Positions 9,984 to 37,404 of a DNA stretch of 64,000 bases are shown here, piece after piece. The stretch spans positions 8,180 through 72,179 of the forward strand of contig DATHEF010000069.1 of the NCBI GenBank assembly GCA_035490435.1, given 5' to 3'. This DNA is from Thermoanaerobaculia bacterium (GTDB lineage: Bacteria > Acidobacteriota > Thermoanaerobaculia > Multivoradales > UBA5704). The notes below the pieces were generated by a model. The model ran no database searches. It saw only the letters and a list, made by a program, of their open reading frames with translations, and was not told where the DNA came from. How positions within the stretch are numbered: the first letter of the stretch is position 1; every line of letters starts with the position of its first letter. The position numbers and the translations under genes were made by a program.

Positions 9984-10058
9984 CGAAAAACTCTCCCAAC
10001 CTGTTCAGGGATGACGGCGACTAGGCGTAGCGAGCGCAAAAGGCTACCACAGTCGGGC

Positions 10059-13000
10059 TTACGTCTCGACCGCCCGCCCCAGTCCCTCGTCGCCGGTCTC
10101 CGCCACCCGCGCCCGCAGGGCGTGCTCGATGCAGCTCCGCAGCCGTGCCGCGAGCGTCTCGGCATGCGGCGGGAAGTGCATCGAGAGATGGTTGCCGGGA
10201 GCCTCGTGGACCTCGGCGCCGCCGAGCGCCAGCCCGGCCCAGACGGCGTCGTCCCCCAGCCCCTCCTCGGCGCGGATATAGAACAGGCTGGTGTCGAACG
10301 GCTGCGGCTCGTAGGCGCGCACCGCCTGCCGGTTGGCGTGCACCACCCGCACCAGCCGCCGCAGCTCGGGCAGGCCGAACGACCCGGCGAGGGTGCCCGC
10401 CCGCCGTCCATGGTCGAGGATGAGCCGCAGGCGCTCCTCCGGCGCGAGCGCGCGGAGATCGCCGAGCGAAACGCCCGGAGCCCCCTGGGCGACGTGCTGC
10501 AGGATCGAGAGCTCGGCATCCCCTTCCGCGTCCCCCTGCTGGCGCGCGAAGCGGGCCGGGTCGGGCGCGTCGAGCAGCGCCAGGAACGCCACCTCCCGCT
10601 GCAGGGAGCGCAGCTTGCGGGCCATCTCGAAGGCGATCAGCCCGCCCAGCGAGCTGCCGGCCAGGAGGTAGGGGCCCTGGGGCTGGAACGAGAGCAGCGC
10701 GTTGACGTAGACGGCCGCCATCTCCTCGACGGTCGTCAGCGGCTCCTCGTCGGCGGCGAAGCCCACCGCCTGGAGGCCGTAGACCGGCTGCTCCGGCCCG
10801 AGCGCCGCCACCACCTGGCGGTAGAGGAACAGCTCGCCGGAGAGCGGGTGGACGAGGAAGAGCGGCGGCTCCGAGCCCCCCGGCTGCAGGCCGACCAGCA
10901 CGGAGGGGATCGGCGACCAGCGCTCCCCGGGCTCCTCCGGCTTGACGTCGTAGCCGAGCCGGGCCGCGAGGTCCCGCGTCCCGCCGTCGAGGGACTCCAG
11001 GGCGTGGCTCTCCCGCCACCTCTCCGCCACCCGCGCCTCGACCCCCTGGTACTGGTGGAACTTGACGTCGCCCAGCATGCGCGACTCGGCGTGGACGCCG
11101 TCGGTCATGCGGGCCGACTTCCGCTTGTAGGGCTCCGCCATGTCGGGGTGGTACTCGAGCCCCAGGAACTCGCAGATCCCGCGCAGGATCGCCTCCGGCT
11201 CGCGCAGCAGGTCCTCGAAGCGGACCCAGTGCTGGCGGCCGGCCGGCACGCCGCCCAGGAACTCCACGATGTTCTCGTGGCTCTCCCGCCAGATCAGCTC
11301 GGCGAGCTGGCGCCGGGAGAACGGGTGCTCGTAGCGGAAGAAGAGCTGGTCGAGCTTGGCTTCCTCGAAGGAGTGGATCATGCCCAGCGGATGGCGGATG
11401 AGGTGGATGTAGCGCGGCTCCTCGAACCCCTCCTCGGCCCGCCGCAGCACCGCCGGATCGAGCGCGTAGGACGGGGTCTTGTCGACCAGGATGCGGTCGC
11501 CGAGCCACTCCTGCAGCCGGCCGTAGAATTCGAGCGCCGTCAGCCCCTCCCGCTCGCAGCCGGCGACCAGCGCCTCGGCCTCCTCGGCGCCGCAGCCGCG
11601 GATCTCCATGACGGCGCGGATCACCCCCTCGAGCCAGAAGGCGTCGCGGCCGCTGAACGCCGCCCGGCGCTCCTGGAGCGTGTTGAAGGAGAGCAGCTCC
11701 AGCTCCGGCGGCGAGAAGAGCCGCGGATGGCCGCCGAGCATCACCCGCATCAGGGTGGAGCCCGAGCGCGGCGGCGAGAGCACGAAAACCGCTTTGGGGT
11801 TCCTGGCCGGGGCCTGCGCCAGCGGGGCGAGCGGCCGGATCAGACTCCGCAGCTCCGCCAGCTCGGCGTCGCCGGCGGCCGCCACCGCCGCCGCCCGCCC
11901 GCCCGAGCTGCCCAGGGCACCCCGGCCGAACAGCCTCGCCACCCCCTCCGGATGCTGGTCGATCAGATAGGCGGACATCTCGGCGATCGTGGGATGGTCG
12001 AAGATCACCACCACGTGGACGATCTCCCGCAGCTTCTCCTGCAGCCGGCTGACCAGCACCGCGCCGGTGATCGAGCTCCCCCCCACCGCGAAGAAGTCGT
12101 CGTGCACCCCGACCTGGGAGACCTTCAGGACCTCCTGCCAGAGGATGGCCAGGAACCGCTCGAGATCGTTCGCCGGGGCGACATAGGAGGCCTCGAGCAC
12201 CGATCCCGCCGCTCCGGGCGCCGGCAGGGCGCGGCGGTCCACCTTGCCGTTGGCGGTCAGCGGCATGCGGTCGAGCGCCACCAGGGACGACGGCAGCATG
12301 TACTCGGGGAGAGTGGCGGCGAGCGCCTCCCGCAGCTCGGCCAGGCCGGGCGCGGCGGCGCCGGCCGGCACCACGTAGGCCACCAGACGCCGCTCCGCCC
12401 CGTCCTCGCGGGCCAGCACCACTGCCTCGCGCACCGCCGGATGAGCGGCGAGCGCCGACTCGATCTCCCCCAGCTCGATGCGGAAACCGCGGATCTTCAC
12501 CTGGTGGTCGATCCGCCCCAGGTACTCGAGGTCGCCGTCGGCCAGGAAGCGCGCCAAGTCGCCGCTGCGGTAGAGCCGCGAGCCCGGCTCGCCGTAGGGA
12601 TCGGGCACGAAGCGCTCCGCCGTCAGCTCCGGCCGGCCGAGGTAGCCCAGGGCGAGGCCGGCGCCGCCGACGTGGATCTCTCCCGGCACTCCCGCCGGCA
12701 GCGGCTGGGCGGCGGCGTCGAGCACGTAGAGCCCGAGGTCGGGGATCGGCCGGCCGATGACGCTGCCGGCGCCGGCCACCTCCGTCCATCCGACCGGGCG
12801 ATAGGTGACGTGCACCGTCGTCTCGGTGATGCCGTACATGTTGATCAGCCGCGGCGTCTGATCGCCATGGCGCTCGAACCAGGGCGCGAGGCTCGCCGGC
12901 TCCAGCGCCTCGCCGCCGAAGACCACGTAGCGCAGGGCGAGGTCCGGCGCCGCTCCGCCGAGCGCCGACTCCTCGGCCCAGATGAGCTGCCGGAACGCCG

Positions 13001-16000
13001 ACGGCGTCTGGTTGAGCACCGTCACCCGCTCGGTCGCCAGCAGGTCGTAGAACGCCTCGGGCGAGCGGCTCACCCAGTACGGCACGACCACCAGCCGGCC
13101 GCCATGAAGCAGGGCGCCCCACAGCTCCCAGACCGAGAAGTCGAAGGCGTAGGAGTGGAACAGCGTCCAGACGTCCTCGGCGCCGAAGCCGAACCAGGGC
13201 TCGGTGGCGGTGAACAGCCGCACGGCGTTGCCGTGCCGCACCACCACCCCCTTGGGCTGGCCCGTCGAGCCCGAGGTGTAGATGACGTAGGCCGGGTAGT
13301 CCGCCGCGACCGCGACCCGCGGATCGCCGGCGCTCTCGCCGAGGATCCGCTCGCGGTCGCGATCGAGCAGGATCACCCGGGTGCCGGGGCCGGGCTCCGG
13401 CAGGACGGCGGCCAGCGACTCCTGGGCGATCAGCACCGGCACCTGGCTGTCCTCCAGCATGAAGGCCAGCCGCTCCCGCGGATACGCCGGATCGAGGGGC
13501 ACGTAGGCGCCGCCGGCCTTGAGCACGGCGAGCATCGCCACCACCATCCCGACGGACCGCTCGAGGCAGAGGCCCACGAGATCCCCAGGCGCGACCCCTG
13601 AAGCGATCAGGTGATGCGCCAGCCGGTTCGCTCTCTGGTCGAGCTCGCCGTAGCTCAGCCCCTCGCCTTCGCAGCTCACCGCGATCGCCTCCGGCGCGCG
13701 CGCCGCCTGGGCCGCGAAGATCTCGTGCAGGCAGGAGCCGCCGAGCGCTTCCGACCGGCGCTCCTCGAGACCGAGCTGCCGGCGTTCCGCCGCGGTGAGG
13801 ATCGGCAGCTCCGCCAAGCTCCGGTCGGGATCGGCGGCGGCGCCGGCGATCAGCATCTCGAAGTGCCGGGACATGCGCGCGAGGGTGGCGCGGTCGAAGA
13901 GGTCGGTGTTGAACTTCCAGACGCCGAGGAGGCCGCCGGCGCCCTCCCGCAGGTTGAGCACGATGTCGAACTTGGCGCTCTGGCTGCTCCCCTCGACCGG
14001 GCTCAAGGTGAGGCCGGGCAGCTCGAGGGCGGCGGCGGCGGCCGCCTGCTGGAACTGGAAGACCACCTGGAACAGCGGCGAGCGCGACAGGTCGCGCTCC
14101 GGCTGCAGCTCCTCGACCAGCTTCTCGAACGGCAGGTCCTGATGGCTGAGGGCGCCGAGGGCGACCTCGCGCACGCGGTCGAGCAGCTCGCGGAAGGCCG
14201 GCCGGCCCGACAGGCCGGTGCGCATCGGCAGGGTGTTGACGAAGAAGCCGATCAGCGGCTCGAGCTCGCGGCGGTCCCGCCCGGCGACGGTGGCGCCGAC
14301 GATCACGTCGTCCTGCCCCGAGTAGCGGTAGAGCAGCGCCTGGAAGCCCGCCAGCAGCGTCATGTAGGAGGTCGCCCCCTGCCGCCGGCCGAGGTCGAGG
14401 AACGCCCGGCTCGCCTCGCGGCCGAAGGCGAGCGGCTCGTCGGCGCCGCGGAACTGCTGGACGGCCGGCCGCGGGCGGTCGGTGGGGAGCTGCAGGACGG
14501 CGTGCCCGGCGAGCACCCGCCGCCAGTAGGCGAGCTGCGACTCCAGAACCTCGCCGCGCAGCCACTGCCGCTGCCAGACGGCGAAGTCGCCGTACTGGAC
14601 GGCGAGCTCGGGCAGCGGCGACGGCTCACCGGCGAGCAGGGCCGGGTAGAGGGCCGCGAGCTCGCCGATCAGGACCCCCATCGACCAGCCATCCGAAACG
14701 ATGTGATGCGTCGTCAGCAAGGCGACGTGCTCGTCCTCGCCGGAGCGCAGGAGCGTGGCGCGGATCAGCGGGCCGGCGCCGAGATCGAACGGCCGCCGCG
14801 CCTCGACACCGGCGAGCCGGCGGACGGCCGCCTCGCGCTCCTCTTCCGGTAGCCGTCGCAGGTCGATCAGCGGCATCTCCAGCGCCGGCTCCGCCACCAC
14901 CTGCACCGGGGTTCCGCCGCGCACGGCGAAGGTCGTGCGCAGGGCCTCGTGGCGGCGCACCACCTCCCGCAGGCTGCCGCGCAGGGCGGCCACGTCCAGC
15001 ACGCCGCGGAAGCGGACGGCGGTGGGCATGTTGTAGGTGGCCGTGCCCGGCTGGAGCTGCTCCAGGAACCAGAGCCGCTGCTGGGCGAAGGAGAGCGGCA
15101 GGTCGCCGCCGCGTGGCACCGGCACCAGCGGCGGCGCGGTCAGTCCGGAACCGGCGCCGAGGGCGGCTTCCACCGCCTCGGCCAGCGCGGCGACCGTCGG
15201 CCGCTCGAACAGCAGGCGCAGCGGCAGCTCGACGCCGAAGCTCTCGCGCACCCGGGAGATCACCTGCGTCGCGAGCAGCGAATGGCCGCCGAGGTCGAAG
15301 AAGCTGTCGTGGATGCCGACCGTCTCGCGCGACAGCAGCGCCGCCCAGATCGCCGCCAGCCGCTCCTCGGCCGGATTGCGCGGCGCCGCGAAGCCGGCGG
15401 CGGCGCTCCGGCGCTCCGGCGCCGGCAGGGCGCGGCGGTCGACCTTGCCGGTCGGCGCCAGCGGCAGGGCCGCCATCACCACGAAGTCCGCGGGCACCAT
15501 GTAGGCCGGCAGGGCGGCGAGCAGGAACCGCCGCAGCTCCCCCTCCTCCGGCGCCTCGCCCGGCTGGAAGACCAGGTAGGCGGCGAGGCTGCGGGTGGGC
15601 CCGTCCTCGCGGTCGACCACCGCCACCTCGCGCACCGCCGGATGGCGGGCGAGGACGGCCTCGATCTCCCCCAGCTCGACCCGGAAGCCGCGGATCTTGA
15701 CCTGCTGGTCGACCCGCCCGGCGAACTCGATGGCGCCGTCCGTCCGGTAGCGGGCGAGGTCGCCGGTGCGATAGAGGCGCCCGCCGGCATCGCCCGAGAA
15801 CGGATCGGGAACGAACTTCTCGGCCGTCAGCGCCGGCTGGCGCAGGTAGCCGCGCGCCACGCAGAGGCCGCCGAGGAAGATCTCCCCCGGCATGCCCACC
15901 GGCACCGGCTGCAGCTCGCGGTCGAGCAGATAGACGCGCGCCTTCGCCGTCGGCCGGCCGATCGGCAGCGTGCGCGGCGGCGCTCCCCGCTCGCAGAGCC

Positions 16001-19000
16001 AGGAGGTGACCGAGATCGTCGCCTCGGTCGGGCCGTAGCGGTTGAGCAGATCGGCGCCCGGCAGGACCGCGTAGAACTGCCCCGGCAGCGGGGCGGGGAC
16101 CGTCTCGCCGCCGGTGATGACGGTGCGCAGGCTGGCGCAGCCGTCGAACCCCGGCTGCTCGAACAATACGGAGAGCAGCGCCGGGGGGAAGGAGGCGTAG
16201 GTGATCCCCTGCTCGCGGATGAGATCCACCAGATAGGCCGCGTCCTGCTGGCCGCCGGGACGGGCGAGCACGGTCCGGCCGCCGGCGGCGAGCGGAGCGA
16301 AGATCTCGAGCAGCGAGACGTCGAAGCTGATCGTCGTCTTCTGGAGGAAGGCGTCGGCCGCGGTCACGTCCCCCGTGCGGGCGTATTGCAGGCGGTTGCC
16401 GAGTGCGCGGTGGGAGACCACCACCCCCTTCGGCTGCCCGGTCGAGCCCGAGGTGTAGATGACGTAGGCGGGATGGTCCGGGAGCACCGGGACGCCCAGA
16501 TCTCGCTCGCTCCCGACGGCGGGGCCGTCGAGCGAGTCGAGCGGGACGATCCGGAGGCCATCGCGCGCCGGGAGATCCGGCACCAGCCGCTCCTGGGCCA
16601 GGAGCAGCCCGATGCCGGCGTCCTCCATCATGAAGGCCAGCCGCTCGGCCGGCAGCGCGGGATCGAGCGGCAGATAGGCGCCGCCCGCCTTGAGAATGGC
16701 GAGCAGCCCCACCACCATCTCGAACGAGCGCTCGGCGCTGATGCCCACCACCGACTCCGGTCCCACTCCGAGATCCCGGAGATGCCGGGCGAGCCGGTTG
16801 GCGCGCGCGTTCAGCTCGCCATAGCTGAGGCTCTCCGCCTCGAAGACGACGGCGGCGGCCTGCGGAGTCCTCGCGGCCTGCTCCTCGACGAGCCGGTGGA
16901 CGAAACCCTCGTCGGGGTAGTCGGCCGGCGGCCGGTTCCACTCCACCAGGAGCTGCTCCCGCTCGGGGGCGGTGAGCAGCGGCAATTCGGTGAGACGGCG
17001 GGCGGGATCGGCCGTCAGCTCCGCGAGCAGGGTCTGGAAGTGCCCGGCCCAGCGGGCGATCGTCTCCGCCTCGAAGAGGGCGGTGCTGTAGACCCACTGC
17101 CCGAAGATCTGCGGGCCGTTGTCGAACACGGTCAGGGAGAGGTCGAACTTCGAGACCGCGAAGTCCTCGGCCACCGGGGCGAGGGTGAGGCCGGGCAGCT
17201 CGAAGCGCGCCGCCGGGGCGTTCTGGAAGGCGAGCATCACCTGGAACAGCGGCGGGTAGCTCAGGTTGCGCTCGGGAGCGATCTCCTGCACCACCTTCTC
17301 GAACGGCACGTCCTGGTGAGCGTAGCCCTCCAGGGACGCCCGGCGAACCCGCTCCAGCAGCGTCGCGAAGCCGGGCGCCCCGGCGAGGTCGGCGCGCAGC
17401 ACCAGCGTATTGACGAAGAACCCGATCAGCGGCTCCAGCTCCTTGCGGTTGCGGCCGGCTACGGGCGAGCCGACGGCGAAGTCCTCCTGCCCGGAGTAGC
17501 GGCCGAGGAAGGCCTGGAACGCGGCCATCACGGTCATGAAGCTGGTCGCTCCGCGCTCGCGGCTCAGCATCCGCAGGGCCGCCGAGAGCTCGCCCGAGAG
17601 CACGAAGCCGTGCGTCGAGCCGCGGAAGCTCTGGACGCTCGGGCGCGGCCGGTCGCCCGGGAGCTGCAGGACCGGCACGCCGGCGAGCCGCTCGCGCCAG
17701 TAGGCGAGCTGCCGCTCGATGGCCGCCCCTTCCAGCCACCGCCGCTGCCAGCGGGCGAAGTCGACGTACTGCACCGGCAGCGCCGGCAGCGGCGACGGCT
17801 CCCCTGCCACGAAGGCGGCGTAGAGAGCCGCGACCTCGCGCACCAGCACGCCGATCGACCAGCCGTCGCAGACGATGTGATGGGCGGTGAACGAGGCGAC
17901 GTGATCCTCGGCGCCCAGCCGCACCAGCAGGGCCCGGATCAGCGGGCCGGCGGCGAGGTCGAACGGCTCGCCGCCGTAGGCCGCGACGGCATCGCGGGCC
18001 GCGAGATCGCCCGCCGCGGCGGGCAGCGCCGACAGATCGACCACCCGCGGCTCCAGCCGCGGCTCCGGGCCGATGATCTGGACCGGGTTCCCCTGCGCCG
18101 CCGCGAACGTGGTGCGCAGCGCGGCATGGCGGCGCGCGATCTCTTCCAGGCTGCGGCCGAGCACCGGCACGTCGAGGCGACCGAGCAGACGCACGCTCAT
18201 CGAGACGTTGTAGGTCCGCGTCCCCGGATCGAGCTGGTCGAGGAACCAGAGCCGCTCCTGCGAGAAGGAGAGCGGCAGCGCCTCCCCTTCCCGCCAATCC
18301 CCGGCTTCGAGGACCGCTGCCTCCCCCTCCAGCCCGGCGATGACGCCCACGCGCTCGCGCTCGACGTCGTAGCCCAGCCGGGCCGCCAGCCGCCACGTCG
18401 CCTCGCCGAGGAAGTCGTGGTCATAGGCTTCGCGCCAGCGTTCGGCCACCTCCGCGTCGACCCCGCTATGCTCGTGAAACTTGACGTCCCCGAGCATCCG
18501 CGACTCGGCGTAGAGGCCGTCCGTCATCCGCGCCCGCCGCTTGACGTACGGCACGGCCATGTCGGGGTGATAGTCGATCCCGAGCGACGCGCACACCCCG
18601 CGCAGAACCCCCTCGGGGTCCTTCAGGAGCTCCTCGAAGTGGAGGGTCTGCTGGCGCTCCGGCGGGACTTCGGCGAGGAAGTCGAGGATGTTCTGATGCG
18701 CGATCCCCCACAGCGCCTCGGCCAGCTCCCGGCGGTCGAACGAGTGATTCTCGGCAAAGAAGATCTGGTCGATCCGGGCCTCCTCGAAGGAGTGGATCAT
18801 GCCGTAGGGGTGGCGAACCAGATGCAGATAGCGGGCGCCGCCGAACACTTCCTCGGCGCGCCGCAGCGTCGCCGGATCCCAGGCGTAGGTCGGCGTCTTG
18901 TCGACCAGCAGGCGCGGCGCGATGCGCTCCTGGAGGATGCGGTAGGCCTCCTGCGTCGTCGTGCCGTTCCATTCGAGCTGCTCGACCAGCGTGCCCGCCT

Positions 19001-22000
19001 CCTCCGGGGTGATGCCCTGGACCTCGACGACCGCCCGCAGCAGGCCCTCCAGCCGGAAGCTGTCGCGGCCCGGAAAGGCCTCCCGCCGCTCGCGCAAGGT
19101 GTTGAAGTTGAGCAGCTCGAGCTCCGGCGGCGCGAAGAGCTGCGGGTTGCCGCCCAGCATCACGCGCAGCAGCGTCGATCCCGACCGCGGCGGCGAGAGC
19201 ACGAACAGCGCGGGAGGATTGACGATGCCGTCGAGGATGGCGGGCGCCAGCTTGCGGAGATGCCAGCGGATCTGCGCCAGCCGCTCCTCATCGACCGTGG
19301 GCTCGGCCGCCGGCGCCGCGGCGCCCGCTTCGGCGACCTCCTCGCCCCAGATCCGCGCCACGCCGGCCGGATACTCCCGCGCCACGAAGGCCGCGAAACG
19401 CTCCAGGACCGGCGCGTCGAACAGCGCCACGACGTGGATGATCTCCCCCAGCATCTCCTGGAGCTGGTTGATGAAGATCGCGCCGGTGATCGAGTTGCCG
19501 CCGAGGTCGAAGAAATGATCCCGCAGGCCGATGCGCTCGACCTCGACCCCCAGCACCTCGCTCCACAGCCGGGCCAGGCCGGTCTCCAGGACCGTCCGCG
19601 GCGCCACGTACTCCGCCGCGGCGCCGGTGGCCTCGAAATCCGGGGCCGGCAGAGCCTTGCGGTCCACTTTGCCGTTGGGGTTGAGCGGCAGGGCGTCGAG
19701 CAGCACGAACACCGCGGGGATCATGTAGTCCGGCAGGACCGCCCCGAGGTGGGAGCGCAGGTCGGCGACGGTGACCTCCGCGCCCGCGGCGGCCACGACG
19801 TAGGCGATCAGCCGCCAGTCGCCCACCGCCCCCGCCGTCCCGGCCGAGCGGTCGGCCACCACCACCGTCTCGCGCACCGCCCCCTGGCCGGTCAGCGCCG
19901 CCTCGATCTCCCCCAGCTCGATGCGGAAGCCGCGGATCTTCACCTGGAAGTCGATCCGCCCCAGGAACTCGATCGCGCCGTCCGGCAGGAAACGGGTGAG
20001 ATCGCCCGTGCGGTAGGCCCGGGCCCCGGGCAGGCCGAAGGGGTCGGGGACGAAGCGCTCCGCTGTCAGCTCGGGCCGGCCGAGATATCCCCGGCCGACC
20101 TGCACGCCGCCGATCCAGAGCTCGCCGGCGACCCCGACCGGCATCAGCTCCCCCTCGCGGCCGAGGATGCGCAGCCCGGTGTTGGCGACCGGCCGTCCGA
20201 TCGGCACGGCGGCGCGCGAGCTGCCGCGCTCGCAGGGCCACCAGCTCACGTCGACCGCGGCCTCGGTCGGGCCGTAGAGGTTGTGGAGCGGAGCGTCCAG
20301 GAGCTCGTAGAAACGCCGCGCCAGCTCGGCGGGCAGCGCCTCGCCGCTGCACAGGACGCGGCGCAGCGAGCCGCAGCGGCCGACCCCGCGCGCCTCCAGG
20401 AAGACCTGCAGCATCGAGGGCACGAAGTGCAGGGTGGTGATCTCCTGGGCGACGATCTCCTCGACCAGGTAGGCGGGGTCCTGATGGCCGCCCGGCTTCG
20501 CCATCACCAGCCGGGCGCCGGTCATCAACGGCCAGAAGAACTCCCAGACCGAGACGTCGAAGCTGAAGGGGGTCTTCTGGAGCACCCGGTCGGTGGCGTC
20601 GAGCCCGAAGGTCTCCTGCATCCAGAGCAGCCGGTTGACGATGCCGCGGTGGGAGTTCATCGCCCCCTTCGGCCGGCCCGTCGAGCCCGAGGTGAAGATG
20701 GCGTAGGCGAGGCCGTCGGGATCGATCTCGACGGCGGGGCGGAGGTCCTCGGCGTCCTCCTCCCCCGCCACGAGCAGGAGGACCTCGGAGCCGTGCTCCG
20801 GCAGCCGTTCGAGCAGCGCCGGCTGGACCAGGAGGACCGGGGTGCCGGCGCTCGCCAGCATGAACGCCAGGCGGTCCGCCGGATACGAGGGGTCGAGCGG
20901 AACGTAGCCTCCCCCCGCCTTGAGCACCGCCACCAGGGCGACGACCATCTCGAGCGAGCGCTCGGCGCAGACGCCGACCGGCACCTCGGGCCCGACGCCC
21001 CTCTCCCGCAGCCGGCGCGCCAGGCCGTTGGCGCGCCGGTCGAGCTCCCGATAGGTCAGCGACGCCTCGCCGGCGACCACCGCCACCGCCTCGGGATCGC
21101 GGTCCACCTGCGCCTCGATGAGCCGGTGCAGGAGGAGATCCCCGGGATAGTGGACGGCGGTCGCCGACCACTCGCGGAGCTGCTGGAGCTCGCCTTCGCT
21201 GAGCAGGGAGATCTCGTGAATCGGCCGCTCGGGATGGATTACCACGGTCTCCAGCAGCCGCTGGAGATGTCCCGCCAGGCGCTCGATCGTGGTGGCCTCG
21301 AAAAGGTCGGGGTTGAAGCGCAGAGCGATCACCAGCTTGCCGCTCATCTCGACGGCGTCGAGAGTGAAATCGAGCTTCGAGGCTTCGGCGTCCGAGGTCA
21401 CCGGCGACAGGGTGATCCCGGGCAGGACCAGCGGCTCCAGGGGAGCGTTCTGCAGCACCAGCAGGATCTGAAAGAAAGCCGTCTGGCTCAGGTTGCGCTC
21501 GGGCGCCAGCTCGTCGACCAGCTTCTCGAAGGGGAGGTCCTGATGGGCGTAGGCGGAGAGCGCGCTCTCGCGGACGCGGAGGAGCAGGGCCGCGAAGCTC
21601 GGATTGCCGGAGGCGTCGGTGCGCAGGAGCAGCATGTTGAGGAAGAGGCCGACCAGCCCCTCGATCTCCACCTTGCCACGCCCCGCGATCGGGGACCCGA
21701 CCACCAGGTCCTCCTGCCCGCCGTGACGCACCAGCAGGGTGTCGAGCAACGCCAGCAGCACCATGAACAGGGTCACCCCCTGGCGCCGCCCAAGGGCCTT
21801 CAGGCCATCGGTCAGCTCCGGCGTCAGCAGCAGCGCGCGGCGATCCCCCCGGTAGGTCTGCAGGGCGGGCCGCGGGTGGTCCAGCGGGAAGTTGGTGACC
21901 GGAGGAGCGCCGGCCAGCCGCTGCCGCCAGAAGTCGATCTGGGCCTCCAGGACCTCCCCTTGCAGCCACTCGCGCTGCCAGGCCGCGAAGTCGGCGTACT

Positions 22001-25000
22001 GGAAGGGGAGCTCCGGCAGGGGCGAGGGGCGGCCCGCCGAGAAGGCCTCGTAGAGGGCTCCGATCTCGCGCACCAGGATGCCCATCGACCAGCCATCCGA
22101 GACGATGTGATGCACGGTGAGCAGGAGGACATGGGTCTCGTCCTCGAGGCGCAGCAGCATGAAACGGTAGAGCGGCCCCTTGGCGAGATCGAACGGGAGC
22201 TGGCTGACGAGCTGGACGAGGGTGCGCCGCTCCCGCTCGCGGGCGGCATCCGGCAACCCCCGCAGATCGACCAGGGGGAGAGTGCCGATCCCGGACCGGA
22301 TCACCTGCGAGGCCTGCCCCTTGCGCAGGGGGAAGACGGTGCGCAGCGCCTCGTGACGGCGGACCACCTCGGCGAAGGCGCGCAGCAGGGCCGGCGTGTC
22401 GAGCCGGCCCGCGATCCGCACCCGGCCCGGGATGTTGTAGGCCGCCGAGCCCGGCTGCAGACGGTCGATGAACCAGAACCGTTCCTGACCGAAGGAGAGC
22501 GGGATCTCCCCCTTCCGCGAGACGCGCCGCAGCGGCGGCATCGCGAGCTTGCCGGCGGTCAGGCGCATCTCCTCCATCAACGCCGCCTGCCGGGCGACCG
22601 TCGTCGCCTCGAACAGCGCCCGCAGCGGCACGTCGATGTCGAGGGTCTCGCGCAGGCGCGACAGGACGCGCGTGGCCAGCAGCGAGTGCCCGCCCAGCTC
22701 GAAGAAGTTGTCGTCGCGCCCGACCTTGCCGACCTTCAGGACCTCCGACCAGACCCCCGCGATCAGCTCCTCGAGCGGGGTGCGCGGGCTCGCGAAGGCT
22801 TCCGCGCCGGAGCTCGCCGCCGTTCCCGGCGCGGGGAGGGCCCGGCGATCCACCTTGCCGTTGGGGCTCAGCGGCAGGGCCTCGAGGGGCACGAAGACCG
22901 CGGGGACCATGTACTCCGGCAGCGTGGTGGCCAGATGCGCCCGCAGCTCGGCCGGCGAGACCTCGACACCGGCGGCGGCGACCACGTAGCCGACCAGGCG
23001 CTGGTCGGCCGTCGCCACCACCACCGCCTCGCGCACCGACGGATGAGCGGTGAGAGCGGCCTCGATCTCCCCCAGCTCGATGCGCAGGCCGCGGATCTTC
23101 ACCTGATGGTCGATGCGGCCCAGGAACTCGATCGCGCCGTCCGGCAGATGGCGGGCGAGGTCGCCCGTCCGGTAGAGCCGGGCGCCGGCCCGGCCTCCGG
23201 CCACGCTGCCGAACGGATCGGGAACGAACTTCTCCGCCGTCAGCTCGGGGCGCCGGTGGTAGCCGCGGCCGACCTGGATGCCGCCGATGAACAGCTCGCC
23301 CCCGACTCCGATCGGCAGCCGCCGGCCCGCGCGATCCAGGACGTGGAGCTCGGTGTTGGCGACCGGGCGCCCGATCGGTACGGTAGTGCGGTCGTCGCCG
23401 CGCGCGCACCACCAGCAGCTCACGTCCACCGCCGCCTCGGTCGGTCCGTAGAGGTTGATCAGCGGCGCCGCGAAGATCTCGTGGAAGCGCCGCTGCAGCT
23501 CGGCCGGCAGGGCCTCGCCGCTGCAGACCACCCGCCGCAACGCCGCGCAGCGCTCGAGCCCGCGGGCCTCCAGGAAGACCTGCAGCATGGAGGGGACGAA
23601 GTGGAGGGTCGTCACCCGCTGGCGGGCGATCTCCTCGACGAGGTAGTCGGGATCCTGATGGCCGCCCGGCTTCGCCACCACCAGGCAGGCGCCCATCATC
23701 AGGGGCCAGAAGAACTCCCAGACCGAGACGTCGAAGCTGAACGGGGTCTTCTGCAGCACCCGGTCAGTGGCGTCGAGCCCCAGGGCGTCCTGCATCCAGA
23801 GCAGGCGGTTGACGATCGCGCGATGGGTGTTCATCGCCCCCTTGGGGCGCCCGGTCGAGCCGGAGGTGTAGATCATGTAGGCGACGTTGCCGGGGGTGAC
23901 CGCGGCGGCCGGCTCCTGCTCTTCCGGAGCCCCGTCCTCCTCGCCGGCCCCCTTGCCGTCGAGCAGGACGACGCGGGCCTCGGGAGCCGGCAACCGGTCG
24001 AGCACCGCCGTCTGGGCGAGCAGCACCGGGACCCGCGAATCCTCCAGCATGTAGGCGAGGCGGTCCGCGGGATAGGAGGGGTCGAGGGGGACGTAGCCGC
24101 CGCCGGCCTTGAGCACCGCCAGCAGGGCCACCACCATCTCGAGCGAGCGCTCGGCGCAGACGCCGACCAGCACCTCGGGGCCCACCCCCATCCGCCGCAG
24201 CCGGCGGGCCAGCCGCCCGGCCCGGGCGTCGAGCTCACCGTAGGTCAGCGACTCCTGGCCGAAGACCACCGCCACCGCGTCGGGCTGGGACGCCACCCGG
24301 GCCGCGATGATCTCGTGCAGCAGGAGATCGGCGCCGTCATAGCGGACGGCGGTCGCCGACCACTCCCGCACCTGCCGGAGCTCGCCGGGGGTGAGGATGT
24401 CGATCGCATCCAGCCGCTGCTCGGGGTTGGCCAGAAAGGCCGGGAGCACGCTCCGCATGTGCCCGAGGAGGCGCTCGATCACCGCCGGCTCGAAACGCTC
24501 GAGCTCGTAGTCGATCCGCAGCACGATCTCGCGGTCCGGGCCCGCCACCAGGGTGAGCGGATAGCCGGTGCGCTGGAACGCCCCCTCGCGGGCCGTGTCC
24601 GTGAACCCCTCGAAGACGAAGATGCTCTCGAACAGGGGGGTCGGACGCGGCACGTCGGACCAGCCCAGCACCTGGACCAGGGGGCTCTGCTCATAGCGCC
24701 GCATCTCCAACTGTTCCGCCTGCATACTCTGGAGCCAGGCGCGGACCGGCGCGCCGCCCGGCACGCGGACGCGCACCGGGAGCGTGTTGATGAAGCAGCC
24801 CAGCATCGTATCCACCCCGGGCAGGGAGGTGGGGCGGCCGGAGACCGTCACGCCGAAGACCAGGTCGTCCTCTCCGCTGTAGCGGGACAGCACCAGGGAC
24901 CAGGCCCCCTGCAGCACTGTGCTCAGGGTGAGCCGGTTCTCCCGCGCCCACGCCTTCAGCGCCTCGCTCTCCCCCTCCGGGACGAGGGCGGACGCCATCG

Positions 25001-25685
25001 CGCGGCCGCTCTCCTCCGGCCGGCCCCGTCCGGCGGGGCGGTCGACCCCGAGCGGCGTCGGCGTGGTGAAGCCGCCGAGCACCCGCCGCCAGTAGCCCTC
25101 GATCGCGGAGAGGTCGAGCTGCCGCAGCCAGGCGATGTAATCCCGGAACGGGCGCCGCGGCTGCGGCTGGAACGATCCGCCGGTGACCACGGCCCGGTAG
25201 AGCGCGTGCGCGTCCTGCAGGAGCAGGCCCACCGACCAGCCGTCGAGGATCAGGTGGTGGTAGCTCCAGATCACATGGTAGAGGTCGTCGCGCAGCCGGA
25301 TGACGCAGAAGCGCATCAGCGGCGCCTGCAGCAGATCGAACCCCCGCCGCCGCTCCTCGGCGAGGCGCTCCTGGAGCTTCGCCCCACTCTCCGCCTCGGG
25401 AAGGCCGCGCCAGTCCAGAACCTCGAAGGGGAGCTCCACCTGCCGGTTGACGACCTGGACCGGCTCCTCCAGGCTCTCCCAGATGAACGAGGTCCGCAGG
25501 ATCGGATTCCGTGCCACCAGATCCCGCCAGGTCCGCTCGAAGAGCGAGGGTTCGAAACCCGCGCCGAACGTCATGTTGAACTGCTCGAAATAGACCCCCT
25601 CGCCCGGCGCGTAGAGGGTATGGAACAGCATTCCCTGCTGGATGGGCGACAGACGGTAGATATTCTCGATGTTCTCTTTTTTCAT
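10059..25685 (-). CDS. tetramodular NRPS: C-A(Ser)-T-C-A(Ser)-T-ST-C-A(?)-T-C-A(Thr)-T-ST-TE
   Basis: ORF 10059..25841 was trimmed to ATG 25685 ([22 protein letters not shown]), because the upstream 52 codons overlap the permease gene, whose stop is 25705-25707. Hand-located motifs, in order: C1 HHLILDGWS ~25236-25262; A1 [11 protein letters not shown] ~23841-23875; T1 LGGHSL ~22680-22700; C2 HHIVSDGWS ~22085-22115; A2 ~20667-20700; T2 GGNSITG ~19485-19515; ST1; C3 HHIVCDGWS ~17856-17885; A3 ~16427-16462; T3 ~15273-15300; C4 ~14680-14710; A4 ~13250-13285; T4 GGSSITG ~12061-12095; ST2; TE GSSLGG ~10640-10662. Hand-aligned Stachelhaus residues are A1 DVWHVSLVD and A2 DVWHLSLVD (EntF-like, Ser) and A4 DFWNVGMVH (Thr). 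A3 is not recognised. Confidence 0.97.
   Translation of the reverse strand: [5208 protein letters not shown]
10110..10875 (-). other. thioesterase (TE) domain of the NRPS
   Basis: [18 protein letters not shown]..., nucleophile elbow GSSLGG, and His motif PGNHLSM. It directly follows ST2. Confidence 0.85.
10944..11810 (-). other. sulfotransferase domain ST2 (PAPS-dependent, Sulfotransfer_3-like) between T4 and TE
   Basis: [33 protein letters not shown] (5'-PSB loop PRSGST) ... LVDKTPSY ... [15 protein letters not shown] (3'-PB-like RHPxGxxxS). It is paralogous to ST1. Confidence 0.85.
18364..19230 (-). other. sulfotransferase domain ST1 (PAPS-dependent, Sulfotransfer_3-like) between T2 and C3
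   Basis: [33 protein letters not shown] ... LVDKTPTY ... [15 protein letters not shown] ... [11 protein letters not shown]. Confidence 0.85.
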
Positions 25686-25704
25686 CGCCAGATTCACATC
25701 CGGA

Positions 25705-28140
25705 TCAGTCGTAGCGGAGCGCCACGAGGGGATCGACCTTCGCCGCGCGGCGCGCGGGCAGATAGCTCGCCGCGAGCCCCAGCGCTCCGAGCAGGAGCGG
25801 GACGCCCACGAAGGTGACGGCGTCGCTCGCCCCGACGCCATAGAGCAGGCTCAGCATCAGCCGCGACAGCCCCCAGGCTGCGGCGAGGCCGAGGACGAGC
25901 CCTGCCGAGGTGAGCCGCGCCCCCTGGCCGACGATCAGGCGCAACACGTCCTGCTTGCCGGCGCCGAGCGCCATGCGGATGCCCACGTCGCGCGTGCGCT
26001 GGGCCACCGAGTAGGCCATCACCCCGTAGACGCCGATCACCGTCAGGGCGAGCGCGACGCAGCCGAAGAAGGTGAAGAGCAGCGTGTTGAAGCGCTGCCG
26101 GCTCAACGAGTCGTCGATCACCTGGTCGATCGTCTTGACGTCGATCGGAAGATCCCGGTCGATCGACCGGACGGCATCGCGCAGCCCCGTGCCCAGGCTT
26201 TCCGGGCTGCCGCCGGCGGGGCGCAGCACCAGGGTGGTCAGCCGCACCGGGTATTGCGCCAGCGGGACATAGAGCTGATCGCCGCCGGCCTCGGCCAGCC
26301 CCTGCTGGCGGACGTGCCCCACGACGCCGACCACCGTGCGCCAGACGCTCTGCGCCGGCGTGCGGGCGTTGAGCTTCAGGCGCTTGCCGAGAGCGCTCTC
26401 GCCGGGCCAGAGGCGGCGCGCGAGCGCCTCGTCCAGGACCACGGCGCCGGGCGCGTTCTCGTCGTCCGCCGCCGCCAGCGGGCGCCCCTGGAGGAGCGGG
26501 ATCTCCATGGTCTTGAAGTAGCCGGGGCTCACCATCCGCCAGCCGGTCACCGGGGGAGCCTCGTTCGGGCCGAGCACCCGCCCCTCGATGGTGACGTCGC
26601 CCGAGAGGTTCAACCCGGCGCCCATGGGGAGCTCGGAGGCGGTCGCCGCGCTCTCGATCCCGGGCAGGGCCGCGACCCGCTCCAGAAGCCGCCGGTGCAG
26701 CGCCATCGCCTGCGCCTCCTCGGGGAACCGCGCCGACGTCAGGGTGTAGCGGGCGGTGAGGAGCCCCTGGGTGCGGAAGCCGGGATTGACGTCCAGCAAT
26801 CGCCGGAAGCTCTGGATCATCAGTCCGGTGCCGACGAGCACGACGAGCGCGATCGCGATCTCGGCCACCACCAGCGCGCTCCGCGTCCGCTGGCCGGAGG
26901 TGGTTCCGGCCGAGGTCTTGCCGCCATCCTGGAGCGGCGCGCGCAGACTCTTGCCCAGGCTGTGGAAGACCGGCACCAGGCCGAAGATGCAACCGGTCAC
27001 CACCACCAGGCTGAGGGTGAAGAGGAGGACGGAGCCGTCGAGACGGACCTGATCGAGTCGGGGGATGCTACCCGGATTGAAGGCCACCAGCGTCCGGGTG
27101 CTCCAGAACGCCAGCAGGAGCCCGAGCAGGGCGCCGAAAAACGACAGCACGAGACCCTCGGTCAGGAACTGCCGGACCAGGATGGAACGGCTCGAGCCGA
27201 GGGCGGTCCGGATCGCCACCTCCTTGGAGCGGGAGGTCGCCCGCGCGAGCAGCAGGTTGGCGACATTGATACAGGAGATCACCAGCACCAGACCGACGGC
27301 GCCGAAGAGGACCAGCAGGGTCGTCCGTACCCCTCCCACCAGGTCCTCGCGCGCCGGCACCAGGTGGATCCCGTGGCCGCTCGCCGGCGGGTAGCTCTCG
27401 GGATAATCGCGCTCGAACCGCTGCGCGATGAGGTTCATCTCCTCCTGGGCCCGCGCCAGGCTGACGCCGGTCTTCAGCTTGCCGACCACCGTCACGGTGC
27501 GGACCTGCCGCGGCATCAGCTTGGTTGGATTCAACGCCATCGGAATCCAGAGATCGGTCGCATAGTTGCCGAAGCTGAAGCTCTCCGGCATGACGCCGGC
27601 AACGGTGTACGGCTTGCCGTCGAGCGTGATCTTGCCCCCGACGACTCCGGGATCGCCACCGAAGCGCTCGCGCCAGAGCTTGTGGGTGAGGATGGCGACG
27701 TTGTTCTTGCCCAGCACGTCCTCGTCGGCGGTGAAGACCCGCCCGATCGCCGGTTTTATCCCCAGCGTCGGGAACAGGCTCGCCGTGGCGCGGCTGGCCA
27801 GCAGCTCCAGCGGCTCGGTCTTGCCCGTGAGGCTGACGAACTGCGGAGCCACCGCGCCGACACCGTCGAACACCGTGGTCTGGCGTTGCAGATCCAGGAA
27901 CTCCCGCCCGGAGAAGGGGGACTTGGGAGTGTCCTGCAGGAGGAACTGATTCCAGATCATCGTCACCCGGTCCGGCTCGGCGAAGGGCAGCGGCTTGAGC
28001 AGAACGGTGTTGACGACGCTGAAGATCGCACTGCTCGCGCCGATGCCCAGGGCAAGGCAGAGGAGAGCCGCGAAGGTGAATCCCCGGTTCTTCAAAAGAC
28101 TGCGGAAGGCCAATCGAAGATCGCGCAGCAGTATTTCCAT
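25705..28140 (-). CDS. duplicated FtsX/MacB-type ABC permease (ADOP family orphan permease); no ATPase partner adjacent
   Basis: MEILLRDLRLAFRSLLKNRGFTFAALLCLALGIGASSAIFSVVNTVLLKPLPF... There are two FtsX halves, each preceded by a MacB-like periplasmic domain. The start was trimmed to ATG 28140. The stop lies 19 nt upstream of the NRPS start. Confidence 0.9.
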   Translation of the reverse strand: MEILLRDLRLAFRSLLKNRGFTFAALLCLALGIGASSAIFSVVNTVLLKPLPFAEPDRVTMIWNQFLLQDTPKSPFSGREFLDLQRQTTVFDGVGAVAPQFVSLTGKTEPLELLASRATASLFPTLGIKPAIGRVFTADEDVLGKNNVAILTHKLWRERFGGDPGVVGGKITLDGKPYTVAGVMPESFSFGNYATDLWIPMALNPTKLMPRQVRTVTVVGKLKTGVSLARAQEEMNLIAQRFERDYPESYPPASGHGIHLVPAREDLVGGVRTTLLVLFGAVGLVLVISCINVANLLLARATSRSKEVAIRTALGSSRSILVRQFLTEGLVLSFFGALLGLLLAFWSTRTLVAFNPGSIPRLDQVRLDGSVLLFTLSLVVVTGCIFGLVPVFHSLGKSLRAPLQDGGKTSAGTTSGQRTRSALVVAEIAIALVVLVGTGLMIQSFRRLLDVNPGFRTQGLLTARYTLTSARFPEEAQAMALHRRLLERVAALPGIESAATASELPMGAGLNLSGDVTIEGRVLGPNEAPPVTGWRMVSPGYFKTMEIPLLQGRPLAAADDENAPGAVVLDEALARRLWPGESALGKRLKLNARTPAQSVWRTVVGVVGHVRQQGLAEAGGDQLYVPLAQYPVRLTTLVLRPAGGSPESLGTGLRDAVRSIDRDLPIDVKTIDQVIDDSLSRQRFNTLLFTFFGCVALALTVIGVYGVMAYSVAQRTRDVGIRMALGAGKQDVLRLIVGQGARLTSAGLVLGLAAAWGLSRLMLSLLYGVGASDAVTFVGVPLLLGALGLAASYLPARRAAKVDPLVALRYD

Positions 28141-28181
28141 GGTGGTTGGCGCCCTTGAGGTCAGAGCCTTTTTACAACGAA

Positions 28182-28207
28182 GCCCGCCACGCAAGCGCGT
28201 GGCGGGC
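28182..28207 (-). terminator. 11-bp GC stem, 4-nt loop hairpin downstream of the CRTAC1-like gene
   Basis: GCCCGCCACGC-aagc-GCGTGGCGGGC. On the minus strand it is followed by TTCGTTGTAAAAAGG, a T-rich but imperfect U-tract. Confidence 0.5.
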
Positions 28208-37395: not shown

Positions 37396-37404
37396 CGCTG
37401 TCCA

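What the first reader, a model, noticed from the sequence alone, without database searches (positions are those of the whole stretch)
10059..12100. Terminal T-ST-TE tridomain on an NRPS Thr module, a peptide analogue of the CurM/olefin-synthase ACP-ST-TE off-loading machinery
SEEN:
- The last module (A code consistent with Thr) ends in an atypical carrier (FFAVGGSSITG).
- A ~290-aa domain follows, carrying PAPS-binding motifs (SPPRSGST; RHPLGMIHS).
- A GxSxG/GxH thioesterase comes last.

ESTABLISHED: in CurM and cyanobacterial OLS, an ACP-ST-TE tridomain sulfonates the beta-hydroxyl of the tethered acyl chain. TE hydrolysis then triggers decarboxylative elimination of sulfate, giving a terminal alkene.

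INFERENCE:
- A Thr thioester carries a beta-hydroxyl at the same position relative to the thioester as the CurM substrate.
- The same chemistry would convert the C-terminal Thr into a C-terminal enamide (1-propenylamide).
- Alternatively it would release an O-sulfo-Thr peptide.
- I am not aware that either outcome has been described for an NRPS.
Basis: partly seen in the sequence, partly recalled or inferred. Interest (0 to 1): 0.88.

Follow-up and report, generated by a model that had tools for sequence, protein, structure and literature searches.

The report
Built-in sulfotransferase domains in an NRPS

Summary
The 5260-aa NRPS (window 10059-25841, minus strand) reads C-A(Ser)-T-C-A(Ser)-T-ST1-C-A(?)-T-C-A(Thr)-T-ST2-TE. 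ST2 is a clear homologue of the CurM and OLS sulfotransferases (E 1e-67 and 1e-58), with its PAPS-binding and catalytic Glu/Lys residues intact.

The analogy with CurM off-loading fails its tests:
- The TE is an ordinary type-I NRPS/PKS thioesterase, not a CurM-type one.
- The same atypical T-ST unit also sits inside this protein, after a Ser module.
- In 77 related genome loci, 75 of 98 ST domains precede a C domain and only 17 precede a TE.
- Terminal and internal STs interleave in a tree, as do TEs after ST and TEs after a plain T.
- A syntenic relative has lost ST2 cleanly and kept A-T-TE intact.

ST domains follow Ser-, Thr- or Tyr-coded modules almost exclusively (66 of 75 such modules, against 6 of 87 others). 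Relatives also follow FkbH glycerate loaders. NRPSs published with that combination of domains (OciA, DysB) make products that keep the sulfate.

Best reading: T-ST is a portable tailoring unit that O-sulfonates carrier-bound hydroxy residues, giving an O-sulfated lipotetrapeptide. Use of the sulfate as a leaving group (Dha/Dhb or enamide) is not excluded. I judge it a new variant of a known kind. It is widespread in Acidobacteriota, and I found no description of it.

The parts
10059..25841 (-). NRPS gene, 5260 aa: C-A-T-C-A-T-ST1-C-A-T-C-A-T-ST2-TE. The true start is probably the Met at about 25685 (MKKENIENIY), because the first 52 codons overlap the upstream MacB gene.
   Evidence: ORF list and translation; Pfam domains; domain string with A codes
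12243..13718 (-). A4 adenylation domain, Thr-coded (DFWNVGMVHK)
11967..12164 (-). T4, an atypical carrier (FFAVGGSSITG), followed by a linker of about 50-60 aa that leads into ST2
   Evidence: every carrier preceding an ST in relatives shows a non-His residue before the Ser, where the carrier motif was found
10947..11822 (-). ST2, a PAPS-dependent sulfotransferase domain of the CurM/OLS lineage, NRPS-type subfamily (PPELELL)
   Evidence: Pfam PF13469; 4gbm E 1.2e-67; conserved PRSGST, Glu, DK and RHP..S
10179..10865 (-). TE, a canonical type-I thioesterase (PF00975) with a Ser/Asp/His triad
19662..21119 (-). A2 adenylation domain, Ser-coded (DVWHLSLVDK)
19377..19574 (-). T2, a second atypical carrier (FFDLGGNSITG)
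18402..19256 (-). ST1, an internal sulfotransferase domain, 62% identical to ST2 and followed by C3
30469..37395 (-). PKS (KS-AT-KR-DH-ACP-C), the presumed source of the N-acyl chain
   Evidence: Pfam
37405..37761 (-). free-standing carrier protein upstream of the PKS
   Evidence: Pfam PP-binding
25705..28194 (-). MacB/FtsX-type permease, a candidate exporter
   Evidence: Pfam

Best explanation
T-ST is a self-contained tailoring unit: a divergent carrier domain fused to a PAPS-dependent sulfotransferase. It is attached to NRPS modules that load hydroxy residues.

Proposed mechanism in this protein:
- ST1 O-sulfonates the Ser held on T2, and ST2 O-sulfonates the Thr held on T4, as aminoacyl or peptidyl thioesters.
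- C3 passes the sulfated chain on.
- The ordinary TE releases the chain by hydrolysis or macrocyclisation with the sulfate esters retained.
- The predicted product is an N-acylated tetrapeptide, acyl-Ser-Ser(OSO3)-X-Thr(OSO3). The acyl chain comes from the adjacent PKS, and the MacB-type permease may export the product.

Shown here: domain identities, conserved PAPS-binding and catalytic residues, the Ser/Thr codes, the link between ST and hydroxy-residue modules, and the independence of ST from TE.
Inferred: that the side-chain hydroxyl is the acceptor, when sulfonation happens, and that the sulfate is retained.
For: - ST1 and ST2 keep the PSB loop PRSGST, the catalytic Glu, the DK lysine and the RHP..S 3'-phosphate motif. 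These are invariant across 13 aligned sequences that include CurM and OLS.
- The modules bearing an ST are Ser-coded (A2) and Thr-coded (A4).
- Across 77 loci from species-representative genomes, an ST follows 26 of 30 Ser-coded, 33 of 37 Thr-coded and 7 of 8 Tyr-like-coded modules, but only 6 of 87 others. Fisher p = 5e-28, odds ratio 99; the sequences are related, so this p overstates independence.
- 75 of 98 STs precede a C domain, 17 precede a TE and 6 run off the contig.
- Terminal and internal STs interleave in a neighbour-joining tree. Window ST2 groups with Thr-ST-TE domains (L002, L003) and Thr-ST-C domains (L062, L037).
- Tyr-like modules carry an ST both internally (7 loci) and directly before a TE (P0028, P0032). 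A phenol sulfate cannot undergo beta- or decarboxylative elimination.
- ST domains 49-62% identical to ST2, but only 39-44% identical to CurM, follow FkbH (glycerate-loading) plus T domains, including in Microcoleaceae cyanobacteria.
- NRPSs published as combining a glycerate-loading (GA/FkbH) domain with a sulfotransferase domain (OciA, DysB) correlate with products that keep an O-sulfated glyceric acid (PMC2533009; PMC6520454).
- Syntenic relatives at the same chromosomal site vary the residue but keep the ST: Tyr-ST/Thr-ST-TE in L002 and Tyr-ST/Ser-ST-TE in L023.
- The TE is canonical. TEs after ST interleave with TEs after plain T.
Against: - No product is known for any member, so retention of the sulfate is inferred only.
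- The nearest structurally characterised relatives, CurM and OLS ST, install sulfate as a leaving group.
- An O-sulfo-Ser or O-sulfo-Thr thioester has an acidic alpha-proton and might eliminate easily.
- The Tyr-like code DASTVAAVCK is also used for beta-hydroxytyrosine in glycopeptide NRPSs (my recollection). The Tyr argument is therefore weaker than it looks.
- Tyr-associated STs form their own clade and may not represent the Ser/Thr ones.
- The homology of the OciA and DysB sulfotransferase domains to this family could not be tested, because I could not obtain their sequences.
- No PAPS-supply genes lie in the window.
Confidence: 0.55

Rival explanations
1. Sulfate as a leaving group for beta-elimination. 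ST1 and ST2 activate the Ser and Thr hydroxyls, and elimination on the thioester (spontaneous, or assisted by C3 or the TE) gives dehydroalanine at position 2 and dehydrobutyrine at the C-terminus. This would be a new route to dehydroamino acids in NRPs.
For: - The STs descend from the CurM/OLS 'activating' lineage.
- 59 of the 72 ST-bearing modules are Ser- or Thr-coded, the precursors of Dha and Dhb.
- The alpha-proton of a thioester is acidic (chemical reasoning).
- This reading accounts for internal and terminal STs with a single chemistry.
Against: - The same ST family sits on Tyr-like and FkbH-glycerate modules, where elimination is impossible or where published products keep the sulfate.
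- No lyase-like domain is present.
- C3 has an ordinary HHxxxDG motif.
- Known NRPS dehydrations use specialised C domains (my recollection).
Confidence: 0.18
2. ST2 sulfonates the Thr beta-hydroxyl, TE hydrolysis triggers decarboxylative elimination of sulfate, and the C-terminal Thr becomes a 1-propenylamide (enamide), as in CurM/OLS terminal-alkene formation.
For: - The T-ST-TE order matches ACP-ST-TE.
- ST2 is 40% identical to the CurM ST.
- The Thr beta-OH sits at the same position relative to the thioester. L-Thr is 3R, matching the (R)-beta-hydroxy substrate of CurM ST (stereochemistry from established knowledge and my recollection).
Against: - The TE is not CurM-type by sequence or by fold.
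- No basic residue specific to TEs that follow an ST was found in the segment examined. The best-conserved Arg (TE position 187, 83%) also occurs at the aligned position in some TEs that follow a plain T.
- ST is mostly internal in relatives, 75 of 98.
- Neither terminal STs nor their TEs form a separate lineage.
- The natural in-frame loss of ST2 in L078 leaves A-T-TE intact.
- Tyr-like-ST-TE proteins exist.
- ST1 in the same protein cannot work this way.
Confidence: 0.08
3. Sulfate as a leaving group for ring closure. An amide N or O displaces the Ser or Thr sulfate within the molecule (giving an aziridine, azetidinone or oxazoline), possibly during TE release.
For: - The STs belong to the activating-ST lineage.
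- There is a precedent for TE chemistry that depends on prior sulfonation of the carrier-bound peptide, SulN/SulM (PMC11298585).
Against: - The TE has a Ser nucleophile (GSSLGG), not the Cys of SulM TE.
- The TE is not a special lineage.
- The Tyr and glycerate contexts argue for simple sulfation.
Confidence: 0.05
4. The ST domains are inactive relics that now serve only as structural spacers.
For: - The position aligned with the His of the CurM/OLS PPELHLL motif is Glu here.
- One relative has lost ST2 without disrupting the gene.
Against: - All PAPS-binding and catalytic positions are invariant in the 13-sequence alignment, and the family is large: 654 proteins at E<=1e-10 and 581 genome stretches.
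- The tight association with hydroxy-residue modules implies selection for function.
- The His-to-Glu change is family-wide, not a sporadic loss.
Confidence: 0.03

Closest known systems
CurM / olefin synthase (OLS) / HlaB ACP-ST-TE off-loading tridomain (curacin A, 1-alkenes, haliamide)
   Same: - Same domain order: carrier, ST, TE.
- The ST domain is a true homologue: 4gbm E 1e-67, about 40% identity, same PAPS motifs, same catalytic Glu and Lys.
- The acceptor would be a beta-hydroxyl next to a thioester.
   Different: - The TE belongs to the ordinary PF00975 NRPS/PKS type, not the CurM type.
- The carrier belongs to an NRPS A-T module, not a KS-AT-KR-ACP module.
- The position of the His in the CurM/OLS PPELHLL motif is Glu.
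- NRPS-type STs form a separate clade.
- ST is usually internal and followed by a C domain, and it can be lost while the TE stays.
- HlaB ST-TE is reported as 41% and 37% identical to CurM ST and TE (PMC6274090). Nothing comparable holds for the TE here.
Sulfotransferase (S) domains built into the cyanobacterial NRPSs OciA (cyanopeptolin-1138 / oscillapeptin E) and DysB (dysinosins)
   Same: - The ST is embedded in an NRPS.
- The acceptor is an aliphatic hydroxyl of the bound unit, and the sulfate is retained in the product (PMC2533009; PMC6520454).
- FkbH-T-ST proteins found here, including some from Microcoleaceae, have ST domains 49-62% identical to ST2.
   Different: - In those systems the unit is glyceric acid loaded by an FkbH/GA domain at the start of the chain.
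- Here the units are Ser and Thr, activated by A domains in an elongation module and the termination module, twice in one protein, in Acidobacteriota.
- Direct homology to OciA and DysB themselves was not tested.
SulN / SulM (sulfazecin): sulfonation of the carrier-bound tripeptide by a separate enzyme before TE release
   Same: PAPS-dependent sulfonation happens on the last carrier of an NRPS, immediately before TE action (PMC11298585).
   Different: - SulN is a separate protein and N-sulfonates a Dap amine.
- SulM TE uses Cys and forms a beta-lactam.
- Here the ST is fused to the NRPS, the acceptor is predicted to be a hydroxyl, and the TE has Ser.

Membership tests
CurM/OLS-type ACP-ST-TE decarboxylative off-loading tridomain | ST domain of the CurM/OLS lineage with PAPS-binding loops and a catalytic Glu | tested here: met
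   - 4gbm E 1.2e-67 and 4gox E 1.2e-58.
- PRSGST, Glu, DK and RHP..S are invariant in alignment A1.
- Caveat: the position aligned with the His of the CurM/OLS PPELHLL motif is Glu, and NRPS-type STs form a separate clade.
CurM/OLS-type ACP-ST-TE decarboxylative off-loading tridomain | A specialised TE of the CurM type. As I recall, it is a distinct TE lineage with a sulfate-recognising Arg205 conserved among ST-coupled TEs. | tested here: not met
   - Best PDB matches by sequence are AB3403, NRPS4, Pks13, FAS and EntF. 3QIT is absent at E<=0.01.
- The AF2 model (pLDDT 93) has canonical type-I TEs as its top 50 Foldseek hits, without 3QIT.
- No basic residue specific to TEs that follow an ST was found in the segment examined.
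CurM/OLS-type ACP-ST-TE decarboxylative off-loading tridomain | ST functionally and evolutionarily coupled to the terminal TE | tested here: not met
   - 75 of 98 related STs precede a C domain and 17 precede a TE.
- The trees interleave the two classes of ST and of TE.
- L078 lacks ST2 but keeps T-TE.
- ST1 is internal in the same protein.
CurM/OLS-type ACP-ST-TE decarboxylative off-loading tridomain | Substrate carries a beta-hydroxyl relative to the thioester | tested here: met
   The A4 code DFWNVGMVHK indicates Thr. This is a prediction from the code, not an assay.
CurM/OLS-type ACP-ST-TE decarboxylative off-loading tridomain | Product shows loss of CO2 and sulfate (terminal alkene or enamide) | not testable with these tools
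   No product is known and the organism is uncultured (a metagenome-assembled genome).
NRPS with built-in tailoring sulfotransferase (OciA / DysB type) | ST domain embedded in an NRPS directly after a carrier domain | tested here: met
   T2-ST1 and T4-ST2.
NRPS with built-in tailoring sulfotransferase (OciA / DysB type) | The unit loaded on that carrier bears a free hydroxyl | tested here: met
   Ser and Thr codes here. In relatives, 66 of 72 ST-bearing modules are Ser-, Thr- or Tyr-coded.
NRPS with built-in tailoring sulfotransferase (OciA / DysB type) | Sequence homology of the ST to the OciA and DysB sulfotransferase domains | not tested
   - I could not obtain the OciA and DysB sequences.
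- As a proxy, FkbH-T-ST proteins, including cyanobacterial ones, are 49-62% identical to ST2.
- A dedicated search returned no named Planktothrix protein.
NRPS with built-in tailoring sulfotransferase (OciA / DysB type) | Sulfate ester retained in the final product | not testable with these tools
   Needs mass spectrometry of the product.
Canonical type-I NRPS/PKS thioesterase (PF00975) | PF00975 match, alpha/beta-hydrolase fold with lid, GxSxG Ser, Asp and His | tested here: met
   - PF00975 E 1.4e-27.
- S89, D116 and H243 conserved in A2.
- Model pLDDT 93, TM-score (query-normalised) 0.81 to the AB3403 TE.

The most novel reading that the evidence does not exclude
The sulfate installed by the fused ST domains may serve as a leaving group on the assembly line rather than as a final decoration. 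O-sulfo-Ser2 would then become dehydroalanine. The C-terminal O-sulfo-Thr would become dehydrobutyrine, or a 1-propenylamide enamide by decarboxylative elimination on release. That would be a PAPS-driven route to dehydro or enamide residues in nonribosomal peptides, and I know of no such route.
Probability: 0.25. Interest if true: 0.8.

Novelty: new variant of a known kind. Interest (0 to 1): 0.55.

Why it matters
O-sulfated Ser and Thr residues are almost unknown in nonribosomal peptides. The only published sulfotransferase domains built into NRPSs that I found act on a glyceric-acid starter in cyanobacteria.

This window shows a portable carrier-plus-sulfotransferase unit attached to ordinary Ser and Thr modules (and to Tyr-like modules in relatives). 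The unit is very common in uncultured soil Acidobacteriota:
- 654 protein clusters at E<=1e-10, a lower bound.

This predicts a large, unexplored class of polysulfated, anionic lipopeptides. It also offers a fused sulfation module that could be moved into engineered NRPSs.

It corrects an attractive but unsupported analogy as well. A carrier-ST-TE order alone does not imply CurM-type decarboxylative off-loading.

Tried and rejected
- Nine full-text literature searches found no paper on ST domains on Ser/Thr NRPS modules or on Acidobacteriota sulfated peptides. They yielded only OciA, DysB, SulN and HlaB.
- The CurM ST structure paper (McCarthy 2012) and the first oci paper (Rounge 2007) are not held. 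The residue numbering for CurM Glu60, His62, Lys133 and TE Arg205 therefore rests on my memory plus the PDB-chain alignment.
- I tried to link OciA to this family through an FkbH-T-ST query, cluster names and a T-ST query from a Microcoleaceae protein. No Planktothrix or OciA-named protein came back, so direct homology stays untested.
- I could not obtain the CurM TE sequence for a residue-by-residue alignment. I used its absence from the PDB sequence hits and from the top 50 fold hits instead.
- I looked for an Arg/Lys specific to TEs that follow an ST. The best candidate, at TE position 187, also occurs at the aligned position in some TEs that follow a plain T.
- I looked for PAPS-supply or hydroxylase genes in the window and downstream of L002 and L023. 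Only housekeeping genes were found.
- I considered that the ST-less relative L078 might be an assembly collapse of ST1 onto ST2. I rejected this because ST1 and ST2 are only 62% identical in protein (74.9-75.2% in DNA) and the flanks are syntenic.
Full report
**What is there**

The window is 65-75% G+C. A single 5260-codon ORF on the minus strand (10059-25841) encodes an NRPS. Its Pfam domains read C-A-T-C-A-T-ST-C-A-T-C-A-T-ST-TE, with two Sulfotransfer_3 domains (E 1e-25 and 1e-26) and one Thioesterase domain (E 1e-27).

- FFAVGGSSITG at 12063-12095
- SPPRSGST at 11754-11777
- RHPLGMIHS at 11370-11396
- GSSLGG at 10641-10658
- GNH at 10188-10196

I extracted Stachelhaus codes by aligning each A domain to positions 235-517:

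| Module | Code | Reading |
|---|---|---|
| A1 | DVWHVSLVDK | Ser-like |
| A2 | DVWHLSLVDK | Ser |
| A3 | DVLSIGRISK | unknown |
| A4 | DFWNVGMVHK | Thr |

One addition matters. The same unit, an atypical carrier (FFDLGGNSITG) plus an ST (SPPRSGST, RHPYGMIHS), also sits after the Ser module A2 and before C3. ST1 and ST2 are 62% identical.

**Context**

On the same strand upstream lie a free carrier protein (37405-37761), a PKS with KS-AT-KR-DH-ACP-C (30469-37395), an FG-GAP/ASPIC protein and a MacB/FtsX permease. Both flanks are housekeeping genes: GuaA, PlsY, CinA, thymidine phosphorylase and a TPR protein on one side, and a phosphoribosyltransferase-domain protein, LpxA, FabZ, LpxD, OmpH, BamA, ClpB and LysS further out on the other.

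The closest public sequence is a metagenome-assembled genome of an uncultured Acidobacteriota bacterium, 96% identical in DNA over 17.5 kb. Relatives are mostly Thermoanaerobaculia, Holophagales, Pyrinomonadaceae and Blastocatellia, with a few Chloroflexota.

**The sulfotransferase**

ST2 matches the crystallised CurM ST (4gbm, E 1.2e-67) and the OLS ST (4gox, E 1.2e-58) over about 290 residues. I aligned ST1, ST2, nine homologues, CurM and OLS. The following are invariant:
- the 5'-phosphosulfate loop PRSGST
- the Glu of PPEL (CurM Glu60 by my recollection of the numbering; chain index +3)
- the DK lysine
- the RHP..S motif

The His two residues after that Glu in CurM and OLS (PPELHLL) is Glu in ST1 and ST2. 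The motif reads PPELELL in all but two of the 98 related domains I examined, where the pattern search found none. It reads E, Q, D, N or Y, and rarely H, in more distant FkbH-linked relatives.

The STs look catalytically competent. They form a distinct NRPS-type subfamily, which is monophyletic against CurM and OLS in a neighbour-joining tree.

**The thioesterase**

By sequence, the TE's best PDB matches are the AB3403 NRPS TE (E 5e-25), an NRPS epimerising/cyclising TE (7crn), Pks13, FAS and EntF. The CurM TE (3QIT) is not among the 53 hits at E<=0.01, although distant hydrolases such as Cif are.

An AlphaFold2 model built on 30 homologues (pLDDT 93, pTM 0.91) gives only canonical type-I TEs in its top 50 Foldseek PDB hits, again without 3QIT. 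Ser, Asp and His are conserved.

The best-conserved basic residue is an Arg in the lid helix (83%). An Arg at the aligned position also occurs in some relatives whose TE follows an ordinary carrier. The TE is ordinary.

**Is ST coupled to the TE?**

It is not. In 77 loci from species-representative genomes I found 98 ST domains: 75 precede a C domain, 17 precede a TE and 6 run off a contig end.
- Terminal and internal STs interleave in the tree. Window ST2 groups with Thr-ST-TE domains (L002, L003) and Thr-ST-C domains (L062, L037) alike.
- TEs after ST interleave with TEs after ordinary GGHSL carriers. The sample is small: 17 against 5.
- Metagenome contig L078 is a syntenic relative, 81-86% identical in DNA, with the same downstream TPR gene. 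In it, window 10915-11913 (ST2) is replaced by about 30 nt in frame. The ST-type carrier (70% identical) and the TE (81% identical) remain intact.

In a CurM-like mechanism, loss of the ST would abolish off-loading.

**What decides where an ST sits?**

The residue does. I took A domains with a complete code and enough downstream sequence:

| A-domain code | Followed by ST | Total |
|---|---|---|
| Ser | 26 | 30 |
| Thr | 33 | 37 |
| Tyr-like (DASTVAAVCK / DAATVAAVCK) | 7 | 8 |
| other | 6 | 87 |

Fisher p = 5e-28 and the odds ratio is 99. The sequences are related, so the p-value overstates independence, but the effect is very large.

Further points:
- Metagenome proteins also include Tyr-like-T-ST-TE (P0028, P0032) and a few modules coded Dab-like, Gln-like or unknown.
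- Every carrier in front of an ST, where the motif was found, has a non-His residue before the phosphopantetheine Ser (GG[NSDT]S[IL]). T-ST therefore travels as one unit.
- At the same chromosomal site as in the window (NRPS-TE, then TPR, CinA, PlsY and GuaA, with thymidine phosphorylase between TPR and CinA in the window and L002), relatives carry ...Tyr-ST/Thr-ST-TE (L002) or ...Tyr-ST/Ser-ST-TE (L023). L003 repeats the window's order. The sulfated positions persist while the residues change.

**Link to known chemistry**

ST domains closer to ST2 (49-62% identity) than to CurM (39-44%) follow FkbH (TIGR01686) plus carrier domains. Some of these proteins come from Microcoleaceae and Microcoleus cyanobacteria.

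Two NRPSs have been published as combining a glycerate-loading (GA/FkbH) domain with a sulfotransferase domain. One is Planktothrix OciA, with its GA and S domains (PMC2533009). The other is DysB, with an FkbH domain and an 'unusual sulfotransferase domain' (PMC6520454). Both correlate with products that keep an O-sulfated glyceric acid.

Sulfonation of a carrier-bound peptide just before TE action is also established for SulN/SulM. There it is done by a separate enzyme on an amine, and the TE uses Cys (PMC11298585).

I could not obtain the OciA or DysB sequences, so their membership in this clade is untested.

**Most likely mechanism**

T-ST is a portable tailoring unit that O-sulfonates the side-chain hydroxyl of the residue on its own carrier, using PAPS. 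Here that gives acyl-Ser-Ser(OSO3)-X-Thr(OSO3), released by an ordinary TE. The domain identities, the residue association and the independence from the TE are shown. The acceptor atom, the timing and the retention of sulfate are inferred. I put this at 0.55.

Rivals:
- Beta-elimination to Dha/Dhb (0.18). It is attractive because the nearest characterised relatives use sulfate as a leaving group. The Tyr-like and glycerate contexts argue against it. The Tyr-like code may also stand for beta-hydroxytyrosine, and the Tyr-associated STs form their own clade, so this counter-argument is not airtight.
- Sulfate-displacing cyclisation (0.05).
- Inactive relic domains (0.03).

**Comparison and novelty**

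This is not a member of the CurM/OLS off-loading tridomain family. Two defining features, the specialised TE and the ST-TE coupling, were tested and not met.

It works most like the OciA/DysB type of NRPS sulfotransferase domain, extended to Ser, Thr and Tyr-like modules and to the termination module. The searchable literature has no description of this arrangement.

I rate it a new variant of a known kind, with interest 0.55. A natural-products specialist would find an abundant, uncharacterised route to O-sulfo-Ser/Thr lipopeptides worth pursuing. The more spectacular enamide-forming reading is unlikely.

Noticed in passing
window 30469-37761 (-): The PKS has the unusual domain order KS-AT-KR-DH-ACP-C, with KR before DH and a terminal C domain that matches only profile positions 34-356 of 456. 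A free-standing carrier protein precedes it. No acyl-AMP ligase or loading module is visible, so the source of the starter unit is unclear.
   Followed up: no
window 25705-30355 (-): An FG-GAP/ASPIC (UnbV) repeat protein and an 829-aa MacB/FtsX permease lie between the PKS and NRPS genes. No ABC ATPase gene was seen next to the permease. The first 52 codons of the NRPS ORF overlap the permease gene, so the real start is probably the Met at about 25685.
   Followed up: partly
window ~15400-16900 (A3 domain, -): The A3 code DVLSIGRISK matches no specificity I know. With the variant DVASIGRISK it accounts for 9 of the ST-less modules in relatives (7 and 2), where it lies in NRPSs that also carry ST modules. 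The Arg at position 322 may hint at an acidic side chain.
   Followed up: no
L002 1-12035; L023 1-19229; window 2730-25841: The same chromosomal site holds NRPSs with different module orders in related genomes: Ser-ST/X/Thr-ST-TE, Tyr-ST/Thr-ST-TE and Tyr-ST/Ser-ST-TE. In each case the NRPS-TE is followed by TPR, CinA, PlsY and GuaA, with thymidine phosphorylase between TPR and CinA in the window and L002. This looks like module shuffling at a fixed locus.
   Followed up: partly
L078 1-2560 (corresponds to window 9377-12885): This is a natural in-frame deletion of ST2 only. Window 10915-11913 is replaced by about 30 nt, while A-T-TE and the downstream TPR gene are kept at 81-86% DNA identity. 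It rests on a single 2.5-kb metagenome contig, so whether the allele is functional is unknown.
   Followed up: yes
L001 1-20861 (CAVXIG010000064.1): The closest public genome is 96.3% identical in DNA over 17.5 kb but has 52 gap openings. Its NRPS reading frame is broken into three pieces, whereas the window's is intact. Assembly indel errors in that record are the likely cause.
   Followed up: partly
proteins P0249, P0262, P0274, P0297, P0319, P0322; P0128, P0129, P0132: Stand-alone proteins of about 430 aa, many of them T-ST didomains, occur in cyanobacteria (Spirulinaceae, Anabaena PCC 7108, Sphaerospermopsis; some have no recorded carrier domain), in Thiothrix nivea and in other phyla. Free-standing FkbH-T-ST-TE proteins also exist, for example in Thermoguttaceae. 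P0132 has the CurM-like PPELHLL motif.
   Followed up: no
window 13773-22511 (C2, C3, C4, -): The NRPS has no epimerisation domain. Yet C2-C4 begin with LPLSF.Q.R.WF motifs, which I associate from memory with C domains that accept D-configured donors. The C-domain subtype and the product stereochemistry were not analysed.
   Followed up: no
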